A stretch of DNA of 64,000 nt from Nanobdellota archaeon (lineage in GTDB: Archaea; Nanobdellota; Nanobdellia; SCGC-AAA011-G17; JACPNG01). Shown here piece after piece: positions 17,441 through 54,611 of this stretch (position 1 is its first letter; each line of letters opens with the position of its first letter). The notes below the pieces were generated by a model. The model did not search any database, was not told the DNA's origin, and was given only the letters and a program-made list of their open reading frames with translations. Position numbers and translations under genes: made by a program. The DNA is taken from the NCBI GenBank assembly GCA_038046345.1, contig JBBSWJ010000005.1, positions 24,784 to 88,783 on the forward strand, in the 5' to 3' direction.

Positions 17441-17548
17441 TGGACCCGTCGGGAAAATCGACGATCCAAGATGTCTAATGCAAATCGTTTTCGAACCCGA
17501 GGCCCCTACCTTGCAAGGGTAATGCTCTACCAGCTGAGCTACGGGCCC
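17441..17548 (-). tRNA. tRNA-Ala (anticodon UGC) with a 35-nt intron at non-canonical position 59/60
   Basis: Acceptor stem GGGCCCG/CGGGTCC includes the G3:U70 Ala identity pair. Anticodon loop is CTTGCAA. T-stem TCGGG/CCCGA is interrupted by a 35-nt insert that forms a BHB; splicing yields T-loop UUCGAAU. Located in the 16S-23S spacer. Confidence 0.85.
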
Positions 17549-43325: not shown

Positions 43326-43900
43326 GAGTAGTAATAGCTGGTGGGCCATATTGTGGTAAAACAACAGTAATAAATGAATTAAGCACACAGGGCTTTAGGA
43401 CAATAAACGAAGCAACAACGGAGATTATTAAAAAGGAACAAGAAGCAGGTAATAACGAACCATGGTTAGAAAGAGAAAAATTTCAGAAAAAAATCATGGA
43501 TCTTCAAATTCAACAGTTTAATTCAGCAAAAAATAATGTAATTACTTTTTATGATCGGGGTTTAGTTGATGGATTAGCATACTATCATTTAGATGGCATT
43601 GACCCACCAAAAGAACTAACAGAACATGCCTCAAAAAAAAGGTATAATCTTGTTTTCATTCCGGATCTTATTGAAGGATTCAAACCTGACAAAACTCGTG
43701 GTGAATCACTTGAAGAACGTAAGCTAGTTCATGAGCTTATCAGAAAATGTTATTCTGATCATGGTTATAATGTAATTAATATACCAAGCATAAGCGTTTC
43801 TGAACGTGTATTGTTTATTAAAAAGAAGATTAGCGAGCATAAACTACTTTTAAAAGATAATATACGCCGAGAGCAGGATTTGAACCTGCATATCCGTTAG
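43310..43900 (+). CDS. AAA_28-type P-loop ATPase/kinase (NadR-C-terminal-like)
   Basis: Walker A IAGGPYCGKTT. The track ORF starts at 43232; the likely start is the Met at 43310. The 3' end overlaps tRNA-Ser by 36 nt. Confidence 0.6.
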   Translation: MDNQIRVVIAGGPYCGKTTVINELSTQGFRTINEATTEIIKKEQEAGNNEPWLEREKFQKKIMDLQIQQFNSAKNNVITFYDRGLVDGLAYYHLDGIDPPKELTEHASKKRYNLVFIPDLIEGFKPDKTRGESLEERKLVHELIRKCYSDHGYNVINIPSISVSERVLFIKKKISEHKLLLKDNIRREQDLNLHIR

Positions 43901-43960
43901 GAAACAAGCTTACTGGTATAATTTCCAGGCTTGCGCAATACCAAGTTATGCGATCTCGGC
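43865..43960 (-). tRNA. tRNA-Ser (anticodon GGA), class II with long variable arm, 12-nt intron at 37/38
   Basis: Acceptor GCCGAGA/TCTCGGC with discriminator G73. 3-bp D-stem. Anticodon loop CUGGAAA. CUGG pairs with intron CCAG to form the BHB central helix. 15-nt variable arm. T-arm GCAGG-TTCAAAT-CCTGC. Confidence 0.8.
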
Positions 43961-48694: not shown

Positions 48695-51049
48695 TTAATC
48701 CCGTCTTTTAACATAGAAGTAACCTACTATAATTAAAACAATAACAATTATTGTTACAATCCACATAATCCTTCCAAATCCTTTCTCACTAATCTTTTCT
48801 TCAATATCTCCGCTAACAGTAGGAATTTCTTCACTTGGTGCTGATTCTTCTTCGGCTACAACCTCAAGATCTTTTAGTTTTAAAACAGTAATTGTTGCAA
48901 CCCCGTTAGTAATGCTTTCTAAAGTTACCTGTGCATTAGGTGTTCCGTCTCCGTCCATATCAACATCCTTTGTTTCTCCAACACTTAATGTTACTTCAGC
49001 TTTGTAACTTTCAATAGTAAAAGTTAAAGTATTCTCATTTACTTTAACAAAAGTGATAGTATGCGCATCAGTGCCACTTAAACTAAATACCTTAATACTG
49101 CCTTGCGATCCAACAAAAGTGGTCTTATCACTTGTACTCAGGTCTGCGTCTAATACTAGTTCCTCACCAGATCTGCTAATACCGCTCCCGCCGCCCGAGC
49201 TTGATGCATCTCCGCCGCCAGTGCTAGTGAAAACAATAAACGTTATTATACCAGTGCTAGTTGTAGTGTGCACAACTTGATCTTTTGTTGTGCATTCAAC
49301 ATTATAAGTACCTGCTTCATTAGTATCAGTATTCTTAAATTCTTGATCACTGCAAGTTTCGCTGGTTTTAGTAATAGTGCTACCACCTGGTTTAGTTATC
49401 TTAATACTACAAGTGTTCATACCACTTACACTATCAGTTCCAGAGCAGCCATATTTTATGCTGCTGAATGGATTGATATTCTTGTCTGCTGGTTCTGTAA
49501 GCGCAACAGTAGGCACCCCTCCGTCAAGAACAAAACTGCCTCTGTAATATTTTGGCCATTGAGCTACTGCAGTTGAATTTATCTTAATAATAAAATTAGT
49601 ATAATTTCCATCGCTGCTATCATTTGCTACACCTTTGCCAATAGTACCGTTATATAGCGTGATATTAGTTGCTCCATAAGCACCTGTAGTTATGTTTGTT
49701 AGGTTTAAGTAACCATTCGCAGCAACCCCATTATTTTCCTCTGTTCCAAAATCTGCAGTAGTATTAAATGTAAAATAACCATAAGCATTTTTATTTCTTG
49801 TATTTGCTGCAACAGCAATTACCCCGCCACTGCCTTCGATTGTAAAGGTTAGCAATGAATTTGCCTGTAAGTACCCTACACCACTCCTTCCAGACCCTAG
49901 TTGGTTTTTATCAAAATCCAATACATTTCCTGCTTCATCAGTTATGTTTAAAGCAGTTATATTAGGCTGACCGTCAAGCCCTATAAACATAAATGGATTA
50001 TCTGTTAAGAAATTATTATCTGATGTGTCATTAATTGTAATGCTATTACCAACTGTATCATACGCTCTTATCACGAATGTTGTTGCATTCCCTTTAGTAT
50101 CCCCCTTATCATTTCCATCAGATCCAGTTCCAACACAGTCTAAATCAATAACCCCTTCGTATGTTCTATTACCAGATTGTGTATCGCTTGTTGTCATTGA
50201 AACATTTCCATACTGCCCTGTAGAAGCAGTTTCTGTAGTTGATGCAGTAGCATTGCTGCTGTTGCATACATAATAAAGGTCTACTGTATCAAAATGGGTA
50301 TCTTGAAGATCAACTTTTACTGTTGTATTTTCTATTGGCATATAAGCCCCATCATTATAAGATCCGGTTTGGAACAAAAGTGATGCCTGGCCAGTCCCAT
50401 TTGCGCGGCTAAAATTCCCTCCAACTAAACCATCAGAGATATTTATAGACATTATTTGTGGGTAGTAAGTGTCTATATAAGTGTACATAAGTGTTGAGTT
50501 TGTTGCTGATGTGCTATCAGCCATATAAATAGTTACATTCCAGTCCTGTCTGCGGCTATGTCCAATACCATCCACTTTATCTGCTGTAAGGTTTACACTG
50601 AATATATAATGACCTGGTAATGTTCCATTATCTGTATTATTCCACCAAATATTACTTAACGTCCCGTCCGTGCTGTTACCAAAGTTCCAGCTTCCTGAAC
50701 CATTTGTTGCATTTGCATGTCCATCAACACCAACAGAACCGATACCATTTGATCTATTAAAATCAAGTCCTGAAGGTTGAAAAGTAAAATTACTAGGAAT
50801 TGTTATATTAACCACTGAAAAATTTGCAGAATCTGCGCTATTAAAAATAATAGAAAAATTAAATCTTACATTTGTGTTGTTCCTTTGAACTATCCCCGAA
50901 AATGCCGTTGTTGTTGCTACTGTGTCGCTTATACTTAAATTTGATCCTGTATTTGCAGTGGTATCAAGATCTGCAATAGTAACACTAAAATGGAATAATC
51001 CAAACAGTAACAGTACAATCATCAATTTAATTTTTGTATTCAATAACAT
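48695..51049 (-). CDS. large Ser/Thr/Asn/Gly-rich cell-surface protein (signal peptide, C-terminal TM anchor)
   Basis: N-terminal signal peptide; low-complexity T/S/N/G-rich repeats; C-terminal TM helix followed by KRRD. Confidence 0.6.
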   Translation of the reverse strand: MLLNTKIKLMIVLLLFGLFHFSVTIADLDTTANTGSNLSISDTVATTTAFSGIVQRNNTNVRFNFSIIFNSADSANFSVVNITIPSNFTFQPSGLDFNRSNGIGSVGVDGHANATNGSGSWNFGNSTDGTLSNIWWNNTDNGTLPGHYIFSVNLTADKVDGIGHSRRQDWNVTIYMADSTSATNSTLMYTYIDTYYPQIMSINISDGLVGGNFSRANGTGQASLLFQTGSYNDGAYMPIENTTVKVDLQDTHFDTVDLYYVCNSSNATASTTETASTGQYGNVSMTTSDTQSGNRTYEGVIDLDCVGTGSDGNDKGDTKGNATTFVIRAYDTVGNSITINDTSDNNFLTDNPFMFIGLDGQPNITALNITDEAGNVLDFDKNQLGSGRSGVGYLQANSLLTFTIEGSGGVIAVAANTRNKNAYGYFTFNTTADFGTEENNGVAANGYLNLTNITTGAYGATNITLYNGTIGKGVANDSSDGNYTNFIIKINSTAVAQWPKYYRGSFVLDGGVPTVALTEPADKNINPFSSIKYGCSGTDSVSGMNTCSIKITKPGGSTITKTSETCSDQEFKNTDTNEAGTYNVECTTKDQVVHTTTSTGIITFIVFTSTGGGDASSSGGGSGISRSGEELVLDADLSTSDKTTFVGSQGSIKVFSLSGTDAHTITFVKVNENTLTFTIESYKAEVTLSVGETKDVDMDGDGTPNAQVTLESITNGVATITVLKLKDLEVVAEEESAPSEEIPTVSGDIEEKISEKGFGRIMWIVTIIVIVLIIVGYFYVKRRD

Positions 51050-51115: not shown

Positions 51116-53902
51116 TTATAATTCTTTTATACCCTTTCTATCTTTTATTTGTTTTCTTATTTTATCTTGCAATGATTCAGGCAGCTTCTCATACATTTGG
51201 TCTACCACAAAATAGCTACCCCGGCCACCAGTAGCGGATCTTAAGTCGCTGCTTAATCCAAACATTTCACCAACAGGTAGCTTGCATTTAACGGTCATTT
51301 GTACTCCCTCTTGTTGCACTTCTAACAATTGCCCTCTTTTATTTTGTATTAATTTAGATACATCTCCTAAATAATCACTAGGCGCTCCAATATGTAATTC
51401 CTGTACTGGCTCATAAATATATGGTTTTCCTGTTAGTATAGCCTCTCTTATCCCCTCTCTTACAGCGGGGTATACCTGGGCTGGCCCACGATGTATTGCA
51501 TCTTCATGTAATTTCATATCAGTAACTCTTACTTTCATCTTCATTGTTGGTTCTTTTGCAAGTATTCCAGCATCGCAAACCTGTTCAAAACCATCTATTA
51601 CTAATTCTATTACTTCACCTATCTGAACTATACCACGAGTGTCATCAACTAATAAGTTTCCCTTGTATATATCCCTATATTTCTTCGCGTCTTTTAAGAT
51701 AACTCCTTTCTCTTCTAATTTTTTAAATGTATCAACATCCTTTTTTTTAAGCCTGCCATCAGGTATTTCTCCGTCCCTCATTAATTGATAAATCTCATCT
51801 TCTAAAGGTTCAACAATAAAAAAGAATTTATTATGTTTATTTGGGGATTTTCCTTCTTTTTCTTCAGATACCTTGGTTACCGCTTCTCTGTACACAACAA
51901 TAGGCGGGCTTGTCCTTACTTGCAAACCTTTTTCTGTTTTTATCCTATTCTCAATAACTTCTAAATGTAGTTCGCCCATTCCAGAAATTAAGTTTTCTCC
52001 TGTCTCCTCATTAATTTCGATTGTTATTGTTGGATCCTCTTTGTTTACTTGCTTTAGTACTTCAACAAGTTTTGGCAAGTCAGCAGGAGATGTTGCTTCA
52101 ATACTTTTTGTAACAACCGGGTCAAATATATGTTTTATTGCTTCAAACGGTTCCATTTCTTCAGATGCAATTGTCTCTCCAGCAAACACATTTTTTAACC
52201 CCACTAAACCTACAATATTACCAGCAACTGCTTTTTCAACGGTTACTCTTTGAGCTCCTTTGTATATCGATACCTGTTGTATTCTAATCTTTCTTTTTGC
52301 ATTGATCATATATGCATCATCGCCCTGTCTTACAGTTCCAGAGAATAATCTACCAGCCGTTACTTCTCCTGCATGTTTATCAATAACAATTTTTGTTGCT
52401 ACAAAAGCAGTCGGACCATTAGGATTACAGTTTACTAATGACTTTCCAATTTCAGAATCTAAATCTCCATGCCATATTTTTGGCACTCTGTATTTCTGAG
52501 CGTCTACAGGGTTTTTATGGTGTGCTATTACCATCTCGAGGACAACTTCATGCAATGGCGCTTTTTTTGCTATACCCTTCCATTCATCATTTTCATATGC
52601 TTTTATAACATCTTTAAAGCTCAGCCCATTTCTTAGCATATAAGGAGCAGATAACGCCCAATTATGAAATGCAGATCCAAATGCTACACTCCCATCTTTA
52701 ACATGAACTAACCATTTTTCTTTAAATTCTTCTGGGGCTACACTCTGTATGAACTTGTTTATCTCAGTTATTATTTTCACAAATCTTTCTTGCATTGCTT
52801 CAGGTGTTAGTTTTACTTCTTTTATTAAACGATCAACTTTGTTTATGAATAATACTGGCTTGACTCTTTCTCTTAACGCTTGACGCAACACGGTTTCTGT
52901 TTGAGGCATTATACCTTCTACTGCATCACATAATACTATTGCCCCGTCTACAGCTCTCATCGCTCTTGTTACATCTCCTCCAAAGTCTACATGCCCGGGC
53001 GTGTCAATTAGATTTATTAGAAAATCTTTTCCATTAATTACGTGAACCATAGATACATTTGCTGAATCAATTGTGATCCCGCGTTCTTGTTCATCTGCGT
53101 GGAAATCCAAAGCTAATTGTTTTCCAGCTAACTCTTGTGACATCATCCCGGCTCCTGCCAATAAATTATCTGAGAATGTTGTATTATGGATCACCATTCC
53201 CTCAGCAACAAAATTATGATTGTCTGCAACTGTAAAATCGTATACCATATCTTTCTGTGTTATCTCTTTTGAATTAACCTCACAGTACATAATATCTTCA
53301 CTTAATATTTTATTCTCTTGGATTAATATTTGTCCATTATTCTCTATTTTTTCTTTATAACCACTTAATGAGATTGATATTGCATCTTTTTGGTGCGGCC
53401 AACTTTTCATGCAAACTACAAGATCCTTCAATTCTAATTCTCTTGCTTCTTTATAACAAAAGTCACGTGCGAGCCTATCCAAAACTAAATAACGATGTTC
53501 TGGTGTTGTTTCAATTGAGCTGCCATTTTTTAATTTTATTTTTATTAGTTCACCGCCAGTTAATTTCCAAGCAAGGCTGATTAGTTTCTTTTCTATTTTC
53601 CCTGAATCTTTATTTAATGATAATACCTTAACACATTGGCTTGTAACATCATAAACAACATGACCATTCTTTTTTTCAAATAGTTTTCCATTTTTTATGA
53701 TCTTATCAAATAGCTTCTCTGCCTGTATAACTGAGCTATCACCTAAAATAATTCTAGACTCACCAGAAATACATTTCCCATGATATCGTTCTATGAAGGG
53801 TTAACTCGATAGAAAATCGATATGGGCGCATATAGCTATATTTCTGATTTGTTCCGGTTCATTCATTAATTTAACAACTTTTTCTGCTATCTTATCCGCC
53901 AT
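51116..53902 (-). CDS. fusA: translation elongation factor aEF-2, interrupted by a BHB intron (53783..53815) and an intein (53183..53773)
   Basis: N-extein MADKIAEKVVKLMNEPEQIRNIAICAHID[intron]HGK[intein]TTFSDNLLAGAGM ... through to the C-terminal domains. The diphthamide-target motif HEDAIHRGPAQ is present. The track ORF (51116..53482) misses the N-terminus because of the in-frame TAA inside the intron. Confidence 0.85.
53183..53773 (-). other. mini-intein (197 aa) inserted in the aEF-2 P-loop between GHK and TT
   Basis: Starts with Cys (CISGESRIILGDS, block A), has TPEHRYLV (block B), ends VYDFTVADNHNFVAEGMVIHN, followed by the +1 Thr. No LAGLIDADG motifs. Confidence 0.8.
53783..53815 (-). 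other. 33-nt bulge-helix-bulge (BHB) intron in the aEF-2 mRNA
   Basis: In-frame insert TTTCTATCGAGTTAACCCTTCATAGAACGATAT (contains TAA). Folds as h CCCAU/AUGGG, H AUCG/CGAU, two 3-nt bulges AU|U and AU|C, and h' UUCUAU/AUAGAA. Cutting after the second bulge nucleotide gives CAUAUCGAU-CAUGGG, which encodes HIDHG. Confidence 0.7.
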
Positions 53903-54314: not shown

Positions 54315-54611
54315 CTAAATCTTTATTCCATGTTTTAAATTTTTTTGAAAGTCTTCCACTTGATTAAGATCAACATCTACAAATATTCCTTCATACTTAC
54401 ATCTCACACATCTCTTCACAGGTCTAGCAAACTGATGCCCCCATAGGATTTCAGAATTCTTTGATGAATCACCGCAATTAGGGCATAATGATATGTATAA
54501 CCATCGCATTACATCTTTGCTTCTTGTTTTACGAAAAAAAATATACCAACCTATTAAAGCAAGTATAACAGCTATAATCGCTATCATTACAACCACTTTA
54601 AGTAATTCCAT
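54315..54611 (-). CDS. membrane-anchored zinc-ribbon protein (hypothetical)
   Basis: N-terminal TM helix followed by CPNCG ... CVRC. Confidence 0.45.
   Translation of the reverse strand: MELLKVVVMIAIIAVILALIGWYIFFRKTRSKDVMRWLYISLCPNCGDSSKNSEILWGHQFARPVKRCVRCKYEGIFVDVDLNQVEDFQKNLKHGIKI

What the first reader, a model, noticed from the sequence alone, without database searches (positions are those of the whole stretch)
53183..53773. 197-aa mini-intein in the aEF-2 P-loop (GHK | C ... HN | TT)
The insert begins with Cys and block A (CISGESRIILGDS), has block B (TPEHRYLV), and ends VYDFTVADNHNFVAEGMVIHN followed by Thr. It splits GHK from TTFSDNLLAGAGM. No LAGLIDADG or HNH endonuclease motifs are evident, so it is a mini-intein or has a degenerate endonuclease. 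With the adjacent BHB intron, the P-loop codons are a hotspot for selfish-element insertion. The other GTPases in the window (aIF5B, aIF2-gamma, EF-1alpha) have intact P-loops.
Basis: partly seen in the sequence, partly recalled or inferred. Interest (0 to 1): 0.7.

Follow-up and report, generated by a model that had tools for sequence, protein, structure and literature searches.

The report
Mini-intein splitting archaeal EF-2 P-loop
A 197-residue self-splicing protein insert (an intein that has lost its homing nuclease) interrupts the GTP-binding loop of the essential translation factor EF-2 in a DPANN archaeon. It lies nine bases downstream of a 33-base RNA intron, so this gene probably needs both RNA splicing and protein splicing to work.

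Summary
On the minus strand, Cys codon 53773-53771 to Asn codon 53185-53183 encode a 197-aa insert between AHIDHGK and TTFSDNLL of aEF-2. The insert is a genuine class-1 intein: Pfam Intein_splicing E=7e-24, both TIGR intein models matched, a confident AlphaFold HINT fold, and best PDB matches to archaeal mini-inteins. C1, T90-x-x-H93, D179, H196-N197 and Thr+1 are all intact. No nuclease domain is present.

It is one member of a large EF-2 intein family in Woesearchaeota/Nanoarchaeota that I could not find described in the literature. About 48 of the 119 closest EF-2 clusters carry an intein at exactly this site. Most are 476-553 aa with a LAGLIDADG domain. Mini forms appear to have arisen at least five times, and closely related intein-free alleles exist.

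[quoted passage not shown] Forty-one distinct homologues show strong covariation, and 34 of them sit in intein-free EF-2 genes, so intron and intein are independent elements. Splicing itself is inferred, not shown.

Verdict: a new member of a known kind, with a more unusual neighbour.

The parts
53816..53902 (-). aEF-2 exon 1: Met1-Asp29 (MADK...IRNIAICAHID), first half of the G1/P-loop motif
   Evidence: Translation. Same N-terminus as intein-free homologues.
53783..53815 (-). 33-nt bulge-helix-bulge (BHB) intron between the Asp (GAU) and His (CAU) codons. It contains an in-frame UAA.
   Evidence: The fold has outer helix CCCAU/AUGGG, central helix AUCG/CGAU, 3-nt bulges AU|U and AU|C, and inner helix UUCUAU/AUAGAA. 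Covariation over 41 distinct homologous introns: 86% of cells paired against ~40% when slid, 0/500 shuffles as good.
53774..53782 (-). His-Gly-Lys codons: start of exon 2 and last three residues of the N-extein
   Evidence: Translation.
53183..53773 (-). 197-aa class-1 mini-intein (Cys1 ... His196-Asn197)
   Evidence: Pfam PF14890 E=7e-24; TIGR01445 and TIGR01443; AF2 pLDDT 89.4; Foldseek best hits are the Pho/Pab CDC21-1, Pho RadA, TFIIB and TvoVMA mini-inteins.
53735..53773 (-). Intein block A (CISGESRIILGDS) with the Cys1 nucleophile
   Evidence: C1 is present in >=90% of 33 aligned EF-2 inteins; the exceptions are N-truncated ORF calls.
53495..53506 (-). Intein block B T90-P-E-H93 (TxxH)
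   Evidence: P91, E92 and H93 are invariant and T90 is present in >=90% of sequences across EF-2 inteins.
53300..53401 (-). Linker (about residues 125-158) at the position where full-size relatives carry a ~300-350-aa LAGLIDADG endonuclease domain
   Evidence: Alignment gaps of 96+58+88+112 columns fall here. pLDDT is 49-76. Similarity to nuclease domains is not significant, p~0.25.
53183..53251 (-). Intein blocks F/G (DMVYDFTVADNHNFVAEGMVIHN) with D179, H196 and N197
   Evidence: D179, F180, N187, F188, E191, G192 and N197 are invariant.
51116..53182 (-). C-extein of aEF-2: Thr+1 (TTFSDNLLAGAGM...) to the stop codon. It includes the GTPase G2-G5 motifs, domains II-V and the diphthamide His motif HRGPAQ.

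Best explanation
The insert is a genuine class-1 mini-intein at the Lys|Thr junction of the Walker-A/G1 loop (AHIDHGK|TT) of the single aEF-2 gene seen in this Woesearchaeota/Nanoarchaeota (DPANN) genome fragment. It descends from a family of LAGLIDADG-containing inteins that home into exactly this EF-2 site, and it has lost the endonuclease domain. It can therefore no longer home and persists only because it still splices.

The expression pathway is inferred, not shown. The gene is transcribed. The archaeal splicing endonuclease cuts the adjacent 33-nt BHB intron at its two bulges, and RtcB-type ligation joins GAU|CAU. The mRNA is translated into a 917-aa precursor whose P-loop is broken. The intein then excises itself by the standard steps: N-S acyl shift at Cys1, trans-esterification to the Thr+1 hydroxyl, cyclisation of Asn197 assisted by His196, and an O-N shift. 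The products are a 720-aa EF-2 with an intact AHIDHGKTT loop and a free 197-aa intein.
For: Sequence shows:
- The insert is in frame, has no stops, and removing it restores the consensus P-loop.

Profiles:
- PF14890 E=7e-24, TIGR01445 E=3.8e-16, TIGR01443 E=9.7e-6; no nuclease family at E<=1.
- The best PDB sequence hits are the CDC21-1, RadA and KlbA mini-inteins.

Structure:
- AF2 pLDDT 89.4, pTM 0.83, all-beta HINT core.
- Foldseek top hits 6rpq/6rpp, 4e2t, 5o9i and 4o1s at E 1e-11 to 1e-13.

Catalytic set:
- C1, T90, H93, D179, H196, N197 and Thr+1 are present and conserved across 33 EF-2 inteins.

Family:
- An exhaustive HMMER search puts the nearest relatives at AHI[DH]HGK|C of EF-2. Next come other P-loop GK|C inteins in aIF5B, SRP54/FtsY-like, SMC-like and MCM-like hosts.
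- 48 of 119 near EF-2 clusters carry PF14890, 42 of them with PF14528 LAGLIDADG_3, all at the same junction.
- 27-29 GTDB species representatives carry the HN|TTFSDN junction.

Loss of the nuclease:
- Full-size inteins align to residues 1-~125 and ~155-197 only.
- Mini forms are scattered among full-size ones in the intein tree, and their linkers do not align with one another.

Empty and occupied sister alleles:
- P0002/P0084, P0010/P0096 and P0004/P0074 pair up in the extein tree. The window's nearest relative, P0021, is intein-free.

Residence time:
- Intein GC3 is 0.228, within the host-gene range of 0.213-0.269.
Against: - No experimental or transcript/proteome evidence for either splicing step is available.
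- Only a 64-kb window (100-kb contig) is seen, so a second, uninterrupted EF-2 copy elsewhere in the genome cannot be excluded.
- The window intein sits on a long branch (40-53% identity to relatives). That could reflect relaxed constraint, although no catalytic residue has changed.
- The trees are unbootstrapped neighbour-joining trees, so 'at least five independent losses' is indicative only.
- The linker (residues 125-158) is not confidently modelled.
Confidence: 0.9

Rival explanations
1. The gene is a decaying copy. The intein (and/or the intron) no longer splices, this EF-2 locus is a pseudogene, and function is supplied by another copy.
For: Public gene callers could not produce a full ORF: a 788-aa TTG-start fragment and NCBI's 892-aa call both lack exon 1. 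The window intein lies on a long branch. The rest of the genome is not visible.
Against: There are no frameshifts or stops in 2,754 nt of exon sequence. Every catalytic intein residue is intact. The extein is 78% identical to its nearest intein-free relative and matches TIGR00490 end to end. The interruption that defeats gene callers is a covariation-supported BHB intron shared by dozens of otherwise intact EF-2 genes. No other EF-2 gene lies in the window.
Confidence: 0.04
2. The intein is retained because it has been co-opted as a post-translational switch. Because it sits in the P-loop, EF-2 stays GTPase-dead until an environmental cue (redox, temperature or ligand) permits splicing. This is compatible with the main explanation and adds a function to it.
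For: P-loop inteins such as Pyrococcus horikoshii RadA splice conditionally (titles and abstracts of PMC4513877 and PMC5790916, listed). The window intein has five Cys, and Cys121 is invariant in all 33 aligned EF-2 inteins. Mini forms persist in several lineages after losing the nuclease.
Against: No data bear on conditionality here. Persistence of mini-inteins is expected anyway, because imprecise deletion from an essential P-loop is lethal. Closely related intein-free alleles work without it.
Confidence: 0.1
3. The ~30-residue linker (residues 125-158) is a degenerate but still functional nucleic-acid-binding or nuclease remnant, so the element is not a pure mini-intein.
For: At 197 aa it is about 30 aa longer than the 168-aa Pho RadA and Pab CDC21-1 mini-inteins. 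Two short helices are predicted in the linker.
Against: No LAGLIDADG, HNH or other nuclease family matches at E<=1. Local similarity of the linker to the nuclease parts of 26 or more full-size relatives is no better than for shuffled linkers (score 39 against a null of 36+-4, p~0.25). pLDDT is 49-76. LAGLIDADG domains need ~200 or more residues (general knowledge).
Confidence: 0.02

Closest known systems
Archaeal aIF5B ('IF2') P-loop inteins (e.g. Pyrococcus/Methanocaldococcus IF2 inteins; NCBIfam NF011418 PRK14845; listed as 'aIF2, COG0532' in Novikova et al. 2015, PMC4760082)
   Same: They sit at the same position of the same motif in a paralogous translational GTPase (GHVDHGK|C...). The window intein matches the intein portion of NF011418 (E=2e-11, model positions 24-134). 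aIF5B inteins are among the next-nearest relatives after the EF-2 ones.
   Different: The host is EF-2, not aIF5B, and the window's own aIF5B is intein-free. Sequence identity is only ~30-38%.
Pyrococcus horikoshii RadA mini-intein (PDB 4e2t, 4e2u, 2lqm)
   Same: A natural archaeal mini-intein of similar size, inserted after the Lys of a Walker-A GK|T loop with Thr at +1 (general knowledge). It has a HINT fold and is a top sequence and structure hit.
   Different: It has a different host (a recombinase), is 168-174 aa against 197 aa, and shares ~22% identity. Conditional splicing has been shown for RadA and nothing has been shown here.
Pho/Pab CDC21-1 (MCM) mini-inteins (PDB 6rpq, 6rpp)
   Same: They are the best structural match (Foldseek E 7.5e-13 and 3e-12, rmsd ~2 A) and the best PDB sequence match (E=8e-9). 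They have the same architecture, with the nuclease insertion site left empty.
   Different: They have a different host and insertion site, and ~20% identity.
Full-size LAGLIDADG EF-2 inteins of Woesearchaeota/Nanoarchaeota (database proteins annotated only as 'elongation factor EF-2', e.g. P0002 1226 aa, P0004 1193 aa)
   Same: They share the insertion site and are true homologues: 41-54% identity over the N-terminal ~125 residues and 45-65% over the C-terminal ~45 residues.
   Different: They carry a ~300-350-aa PF14528 endonuclease domain, which the window intein lacks.
cbf5 pre-mRNA BHB intron of Crenarchaeota (Watanabe 2002; Yokobori 2009, PMC2738675). This comparison is for the adjacent intron.
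   Same: It is a short BHB intron interrupting a protein-coding ORF, removed by the tRNA splicing machinery, and it is patchily present among relatives.
   Different: The host gene is EF-2 and the lineage is DPANN. The intron lies 9 nt from an intein insertion site, and two intron positions 4 nt apart occur in different lineages. A 2020 study stated that cbf5 was the only reported case besides tRNA and rRNA, and itself added one 5'-UTR case (PMC7714728).

Membership tests
Intein (class 1, HINT superfamily) | In-frame insertion in a conserved host protein, removal of which restores the host consensus sequence | tested here: met
   AHIDHGK + TTFSDNLL is identical to intein-free EF-2 homologues. 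The mature protein is 720 aa and matches TIGR00490 at E=1.6e-302.
Intein (class 1, HINT superfamily) | N-terminal nucleophile (Cys/Ser) at position 1 and block B TxxH | tested here: met
   C1 and T90-P-E-H93 are present. TIGR01445 E=3.8e-16.
Intein (class 1, HINT superfamily) | C-terminal His-Asn and a Cys/Ser/Thr nucleophile at +1; block F Asp | tested here: met
   H196-N197, Thr+1 and D179 are present. TIGR01443 E=9.7e-6.
Intein (class 1, HINT superfamily) | HINT fold | tested here: met
   AF2 model with pLDDT 89.4. There are 62 PDB matches at E<=1e-3; the listed top matches are inteins or Hedgehog/BIL HINT domains. This is a prediction, not a solved structure.
Intein (class 1, HINT superfamily) | Autocatalytic protein splicing (ligated exteins plus free intein) | not testable with these tools
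   Requires expression or proteomics.
Intein (class 1, HINT superfamily) | Sporadic distribution: occupied and empty alleles at the same site in related genomes | tested here: met
   48 of 119 near homologues are occupied and the rest are empty. Sister pairs P0002/P0084, P0010/P0096 and P0004/P0074 differ in occupancy.
Mini-intein (no homing endonuclease) | No LAGLIDADG/HNH/other nuclease domain between the N- and C-terminal splicing regions | tested here: met
   No nuclease family matches at E<=1. Length is 197 aa. Relatives carry 354 extra alignment columns at this point. The linker has low pLDDT and no significant similarity to the nuclease domain.
Archaeal BHB intron (adjacent feature, 53783-53815) | Two 3-nt bulges on opposite strands separated by a 4-bp helix, flanked by helices; cuts at the same position in each bulge give the functional RNA | tested here: met
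   The window sequence forms the canonical motif. Cutting after bulge nucleotide 2 gives GAU|CAU, which is in frame. In most homologues the first central pair is not a standard pair (22 of 41), so those are relaxed forms.
Archaeal BHB intron (adjacent feature, 53783-53815) | Structure conserved by compensatory change across homologues | tested here: met
   In 41 distinct introns placed in a register fixed by the splice sites, 86.3% of cells pair against 38-44% when slid. There are 99 double-sided changes against 29+-4 in shuffles (0/500). All 6 inner-helix pairs covary.
Archaeal BHB intron (adjacent feature, 53783-53815) | Cleavage by splicing endonuclease EndA and ligation in vivo | not testable with these tools
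   No RNA data are available. The window does carry a tRNA gene with insertions (43865-43960), which probably has to be spliced too.

The most novel reading that the evidence does not exclude
The intron and the intein may not be neighbours by accident. The BHB intron lies 9 bp (in some lineages 13 bp) from the intein insertion point. That is probably inside the 14-40-bp DNA target that a LAGLIDADG homing endonuclease recognises in an empty EF-2 allele. An intron-bearing, intein-free allele would then be invisible to the intein's nuclease while still yielding a normal mRNA. On this reading the intron acts as a DNA-level shield against intein invasion, and the many intron+/intein- EF-2 genes would be its footprint. 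Alleles with both elements, like this window, would be cases where the intron arrived after the intein or by recombination. Alternatively, the mini-introns could be relics of nuclease-carrying introns that once competed for the same site.
Probability: 0.1. Interest if true: 0.8.

Novelty: new member of a known kind. Interest (0 to 1): 0.55.

Why it matters
Inteins are known to favour P-loops of replication and repair ATPases. The core translation machinery is said to 'contain few inteins' (Novikova et al. 2015, PMC4760082), and I found no paper naming an EF-2 intein. This window belongs to a large EF-2 intein family in DPANN archaea that includes full-size, mini and empty alleles. That makes it a natural series for studying the invasion, nuclease loss and persistence cycle in an essential, highly expressed gene.

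There are two practical consequences. First, EF-2 is a standard phylogenetic marker, and the intein together with the intron causes public gene calls to be truncated (788 and 892 aa instead of 917/720 aa). Second, a compact 197-aa natural mini-intein with Thr+1 from a low-temperature groundwater organism may be useful for protein engineering.

The adjacent intron is the more surprising element. It adds a second, widespread ORF-interrupting BHB intron to the single published example (cbf5).

Tried and rejected
- A word-indexed homology search with the intein alone found nothing. The exhaustive HMMER search was needed.
I used a back-translated HN|TTFSDN junction pattern instead. Of its 44 hits, 15 are chance matches in bacterial contigs.
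- I suspected that the linker motif 'AISISLSGY' was a relic of the 'NTISLSG' strand of the LAGLIDADG domain. Local alignment against the nuclease regions scored no better than shuffled linkers did (p~0.25), so I dropped the idea.
- MAFFT misaligned the two intron types in the first pseudo-alignment (A4). The covariation test was therefore run on type-A introns only.
- Eleven of the 51 metagenome pattern hits lack EF-2 context and were discarded.
- I considered and rejected three readings of the 33-nt insert. An assembly artefact is ruled out because the identical sequence occurs in independent assemblies. A translated insertion is ruled out because it contains a stop codon and homologues are 28-44 nt long, often not multiples of 3. 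A split gene is ruled out because the break falls inside the P-loop.
- ARAGORN found no tRNAs in the window although Rfam finds two.
Full report
**1. What is in the sequence**

The finding lies in a minus-strand gene. Reading that strand from ATG 53902 gives, in order:

- MADKIAEKVVKLMNEPEQIRNIAICAHID (53902-53816).
- A 33-nt stretch with an in-frame TAA (53815-53783).
- His-Gly-Lys (53782-53774).
- An uninterrupted 197-codon block from Cys (53773-53771) to Asn (53185-53183).
- TTFSDNLLAGAGM... down to the stop at 51116.

The only slip is 'GHK' for HGK. Removing the 33 nt and the 197 codons leaves a 720-aa protein. It matches the aEF-2 equivalog TIGR00490 nearly end to end (E=1.6e-302). Its G1 motif, AHIDHGKTTFSDNLL, is letter for letter that of dozens of uninterrupted homologues.

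The window also carries archaeal 16S and 23S rRNA genes and is 34% G+C. An identical gene lies on a 100-kb NCBI contig labelled 'Nanoarchaeota archaeon' and on a groundwater metagenome contig (Hain_H51, 0.1-um fraction).

**2. The insert is an intein**

- Profiles. Pfam Intein_splicing scores E=7.1e-24. The TIGR N-terminal and C-terminal intein models score 3.8e-16 and 9.7e-6. No LAGLIDADG, HNH or other nuclease family appears even at E<=1.
- Solved structures, by sequence. The best matches are the Pyrococcus CDC21-1 and RadA mini-inteins and MJ0781 KlbA.
- Predicted structure. An AlphaFold2 model built on 33 aligned EF-2 inteins has mean pLDDT 89.4 and pTM 0.83. It has an all-beta HINT core and one poorly defined segment at about residues 125-158.
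- Fold search. Foldseek against the PDB returns the PhoCDC21-1, PabCDC21-1, Pho RadA, TFIIB and TvoVMA mini-inteins at E 1e-11 to 1e-13.
- Catalytic residues. The class-1 set is complete: C1, T90-P-E-H93, D179, H196-N197 and Thr at +1. These positions are invariant or nearly so across the aligned EF-2 inteins.

**3. It belongs to a large EF-2 intein family at this one site**

A search with the conceptual precursor returned Woesearchaeota/Nanoarchaeota EF-2 proteins.

- 48 of the 119 clusters other than the window's own carry PF14890.
- 42 of those also carry PF14528 (LAGLIDADG_3) and are 1100-1250 aa long. Six are mini forms.
- In every case with a complete N-terminus the junctions are AHI[DT]HGK|C and [HS]N|TT[FL]SD.

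An exhaustive HMMER search with the intein alone (1.8 billion representatives) gave 496 hits at E<=1e-3. The best ones all begin right after AHI[DH]HGK of EF-2. The next tier are inteins after the GK of other P-loops (aIF5B, SRP54/FtsY-like, SMC-like and MCM-like hosts).

A junction-pattern scan of one genome per GTDB species found the HN|TTFSDN junction in 27-29 archaeal species representatives. Most are Woesearchaeota/Nanoarchaeota. A few contigs are labelled Methanosarcinales, Thermoplasmatales or Parvarchaeum.

I found no paper that names an EF-2 intein. The main survey lists aIF2/COG0532 among archaeal hosts and says translation components contain few inteins.

**4. It is a mini-intein that has lost its nuclease**

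- Full-size EF-2 inteins (476-553 aa) align with the window intein only over residues 1-~125 (41-54% identity) and ~155-197 (45-65% identity).
- In the joint alignment, 354 columns of nuclease domain fall into gaps between window residues 146 and 154.
- The remaining linker shows no significant similarity to the nuclease part.
- The other mini forms are P0006 (200 aa), P0012 (195 aa), P0016 (222 aa), the P0034/36/44 group (~190 aa), L013 (194 aa) and L042 (204 aa). Their linkers do not align with each other.
- In a neighbour-joining tree of the splicing regions, each mini form sits next to different full-size inteins. For example, the P0034 group shares the unusual ...ISN C-terminus with full-size P0023 and P0024.

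This suggests at least five independent nuclease losses. The trees are unbootstrapped, so the number is indicative only.

The extein tree shows occupied and empty alleles as close sisters, and the window's nearest relative (P0021, 78% identity) is empty. Intein GC3 (0.228) lies inside the host gene's range, so this is not a recent arrival. The overall pattern fits the standard homing cycle: invasion, fixation, nuclease decay, and persistence under selection for precise splicing.

**5. How it most likely works**

The steps below are inferred from established intein chemistry and from the anatomy. None has been shown for this sequence.

- The precursor has its P-loop split between Lys and Thr, so it cannot function as a GTPase.
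- Cys1 forms a thioester.
- The Thr+1 hydroxyl attacks it.
- Asn197, assisted by His196, cyclises and releases the intein.
- An O-N shift restores the peptide bond.

Because EF-2 is essential and no other EF-2 gene is seen in the window, splicing is presumably efficient. A second copy elsewhere in the genome cannot be excluded.

**6. The neighbour: a BHB intron**

The 33 nt between the Asp and His codons fold as a canonical archaeal bulge-helix-bulge motif:

- outer helix CCCAU/AUGGG
- 3-nt bulges AU|U and AU|C
- 4-bp central helix AUCG/CGAU
- inner helix UUCUAU/AUAGAA

Cutting after the second bulge nucleotide joins GAU|CAU in frame.

Inserts at the same position occur in other intein-bearing genes (L002, L003, L052-L055). 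They also occur in intein-free EF-2 genes (L048, L050). A metagenome scan for the intron-plus, intein-minus arrangement returned 51 hits, of which 40 are true EF-2 genes with 28-44-nt inserts.

I placed 41 distinct introns in a register fixed only by the splice sites and tested the BHB model:

- 86.3% of cells pair, against 38-44% when the partners are slid.
- There are 99 double-sided changes, against 29+-4 in shuffles (0 of 500 as high).
- All six inner-helix pairs covary.
- The third base of the exon's Ile codon (C/U) covaries with its intron partner (G/A).

A second intron position, 4 nt upstream, occurs in L009, L013 and L024. All four allele states therefore exist: neither element, intron only, intein only, and both.

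A 2020 paper states that, apart from tRNA and rRNA, only the crenarchaeal cbf5 mRNA intron had been reported, and it adds one 5'-UTR case (PMC7714728). A 2025 paper still cites only the cbf5 work. Within the literature I could search, the EF-2 intron looks unreported.

**7. Comparison with known systems, and verdict**

The element works like known archaeal P-loop mini-inteins and passes every membership test that sequence and structure prediction allow. The closest analogues are:

- the aIF5B 'IF2' inteins, at the same motif position in a paralogous GTPase
- the Pho RadA mini-intein, also GK|T with Thr+1
- the CDC21-1 mini-inteins, the best structural match

What is new is the host (EF-2) and the size of the family behind it, not the mechanism. 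I rate it a new member of a known kind.

The tandem arrangement with an ORF-interrupting BHB intron 9 nt upstream is the unusual part of the locus. It raises a testable idea: the intron may break the homing-endonuclease target. I rate that idea unlikely (~0.1), and the present data cannot evaluate it because the samples were collected with biased queries.

There is also a practical consequence. Public annotation of this gene is truncated (788-aa and 892-aa calls lacking exon 1).

Noticed in passing
window 53783-53815 (- strand); also L002, L003, L048, L050, L052-L055, L056-L106: [quoted passage not shown] Homologous 28-44-nt introns at the same Asp|His codon boundary occur in at least 41 distinct EF-2 genes, 34 of them without an intein, with strong compensatory covariation. 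Only cbf5 is published as an ORF-interrupting BHB intron.
   Followed up: yes
L009, L013, L024 (upstream of the HGK codons): A second intron position lies 4 nt further upstream (inside the Ile codon, AU|A). These introns are 32-33 nt long with central helix GCAU/AUGC but almost no outer helix. L013 combines it with a 194-aa mini-intein.
   Followed up: partly
window 51116-53902 (- strand); P0001, P0271: Public gene calls for this locus are truncated. One is a 788-aa ORF starting at a TTG inside the intein. NCBI MEK6940431.1 is 892 aa and probably starts inside the intron. Both lack exon 1 and half of the P-loop. Many related entries start 'MHGKC...' or inside the intein for the same reason.
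   Followed up: partly
window 43865-43960 (- strand): A 96-nt tRNA gene found by Rfam has a 14-nt insertion in the anticodon-loop region and a further 12-nt insertion before the T arm. ARAGORN reports no tRNA anywhere in the window.
   Followed up: partly
window 17492-17548 (- strand): A tRNA match of only 57 nt covers the full 71-position model. It lies in the 16S-23S spacer and is either unusually short or oddly built.
   Followed up: no
L010 (P0051), intein region: A full-size (513-codon) EF-2 intein contains one in-frame stop. The public protein starts inside the LAGLIDADG domain. It could be a decaying intein, a sequencing error or a further intron.
   Followed up: no
window 53409-53411 (Cys121 of the intein) and alignment A3: Cys121 (in ...VVC...) is invariant in all 33 aligned EF-2 inteins although it is not one of the canonical catalytic residues. 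A redox role is conceivable.
   Followed up: no
L006, L024, L035, L037: EF-2 inteins at the same site lie on MAG contigs labelled Methanosarcinales, Parvarchaeum and Thermoplasmatales. This reflects either wider spread of the family or mis-binned DPANN contigs.
   Followed up: no
P0124, P0126, P0131, P0134 and others: Several intein-bearing EF-2 proteins have AHIHHGK instead of AHIDHGK in the P-loop, a change at a normally conserved Asp.
   Followed up: no
window 48695-51049 (-), 54315-54611 (-), 56565-57377 (-): Three ORFs around EF-2 have no Pfam match at E<=1e-3: one of 784 aa, a 98-aa ORF with an N-terminal hydrophobic stretch and a CxxC...CxxC pattern (read by eye from the translation), and one of 270 aa.
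   Followed up: no
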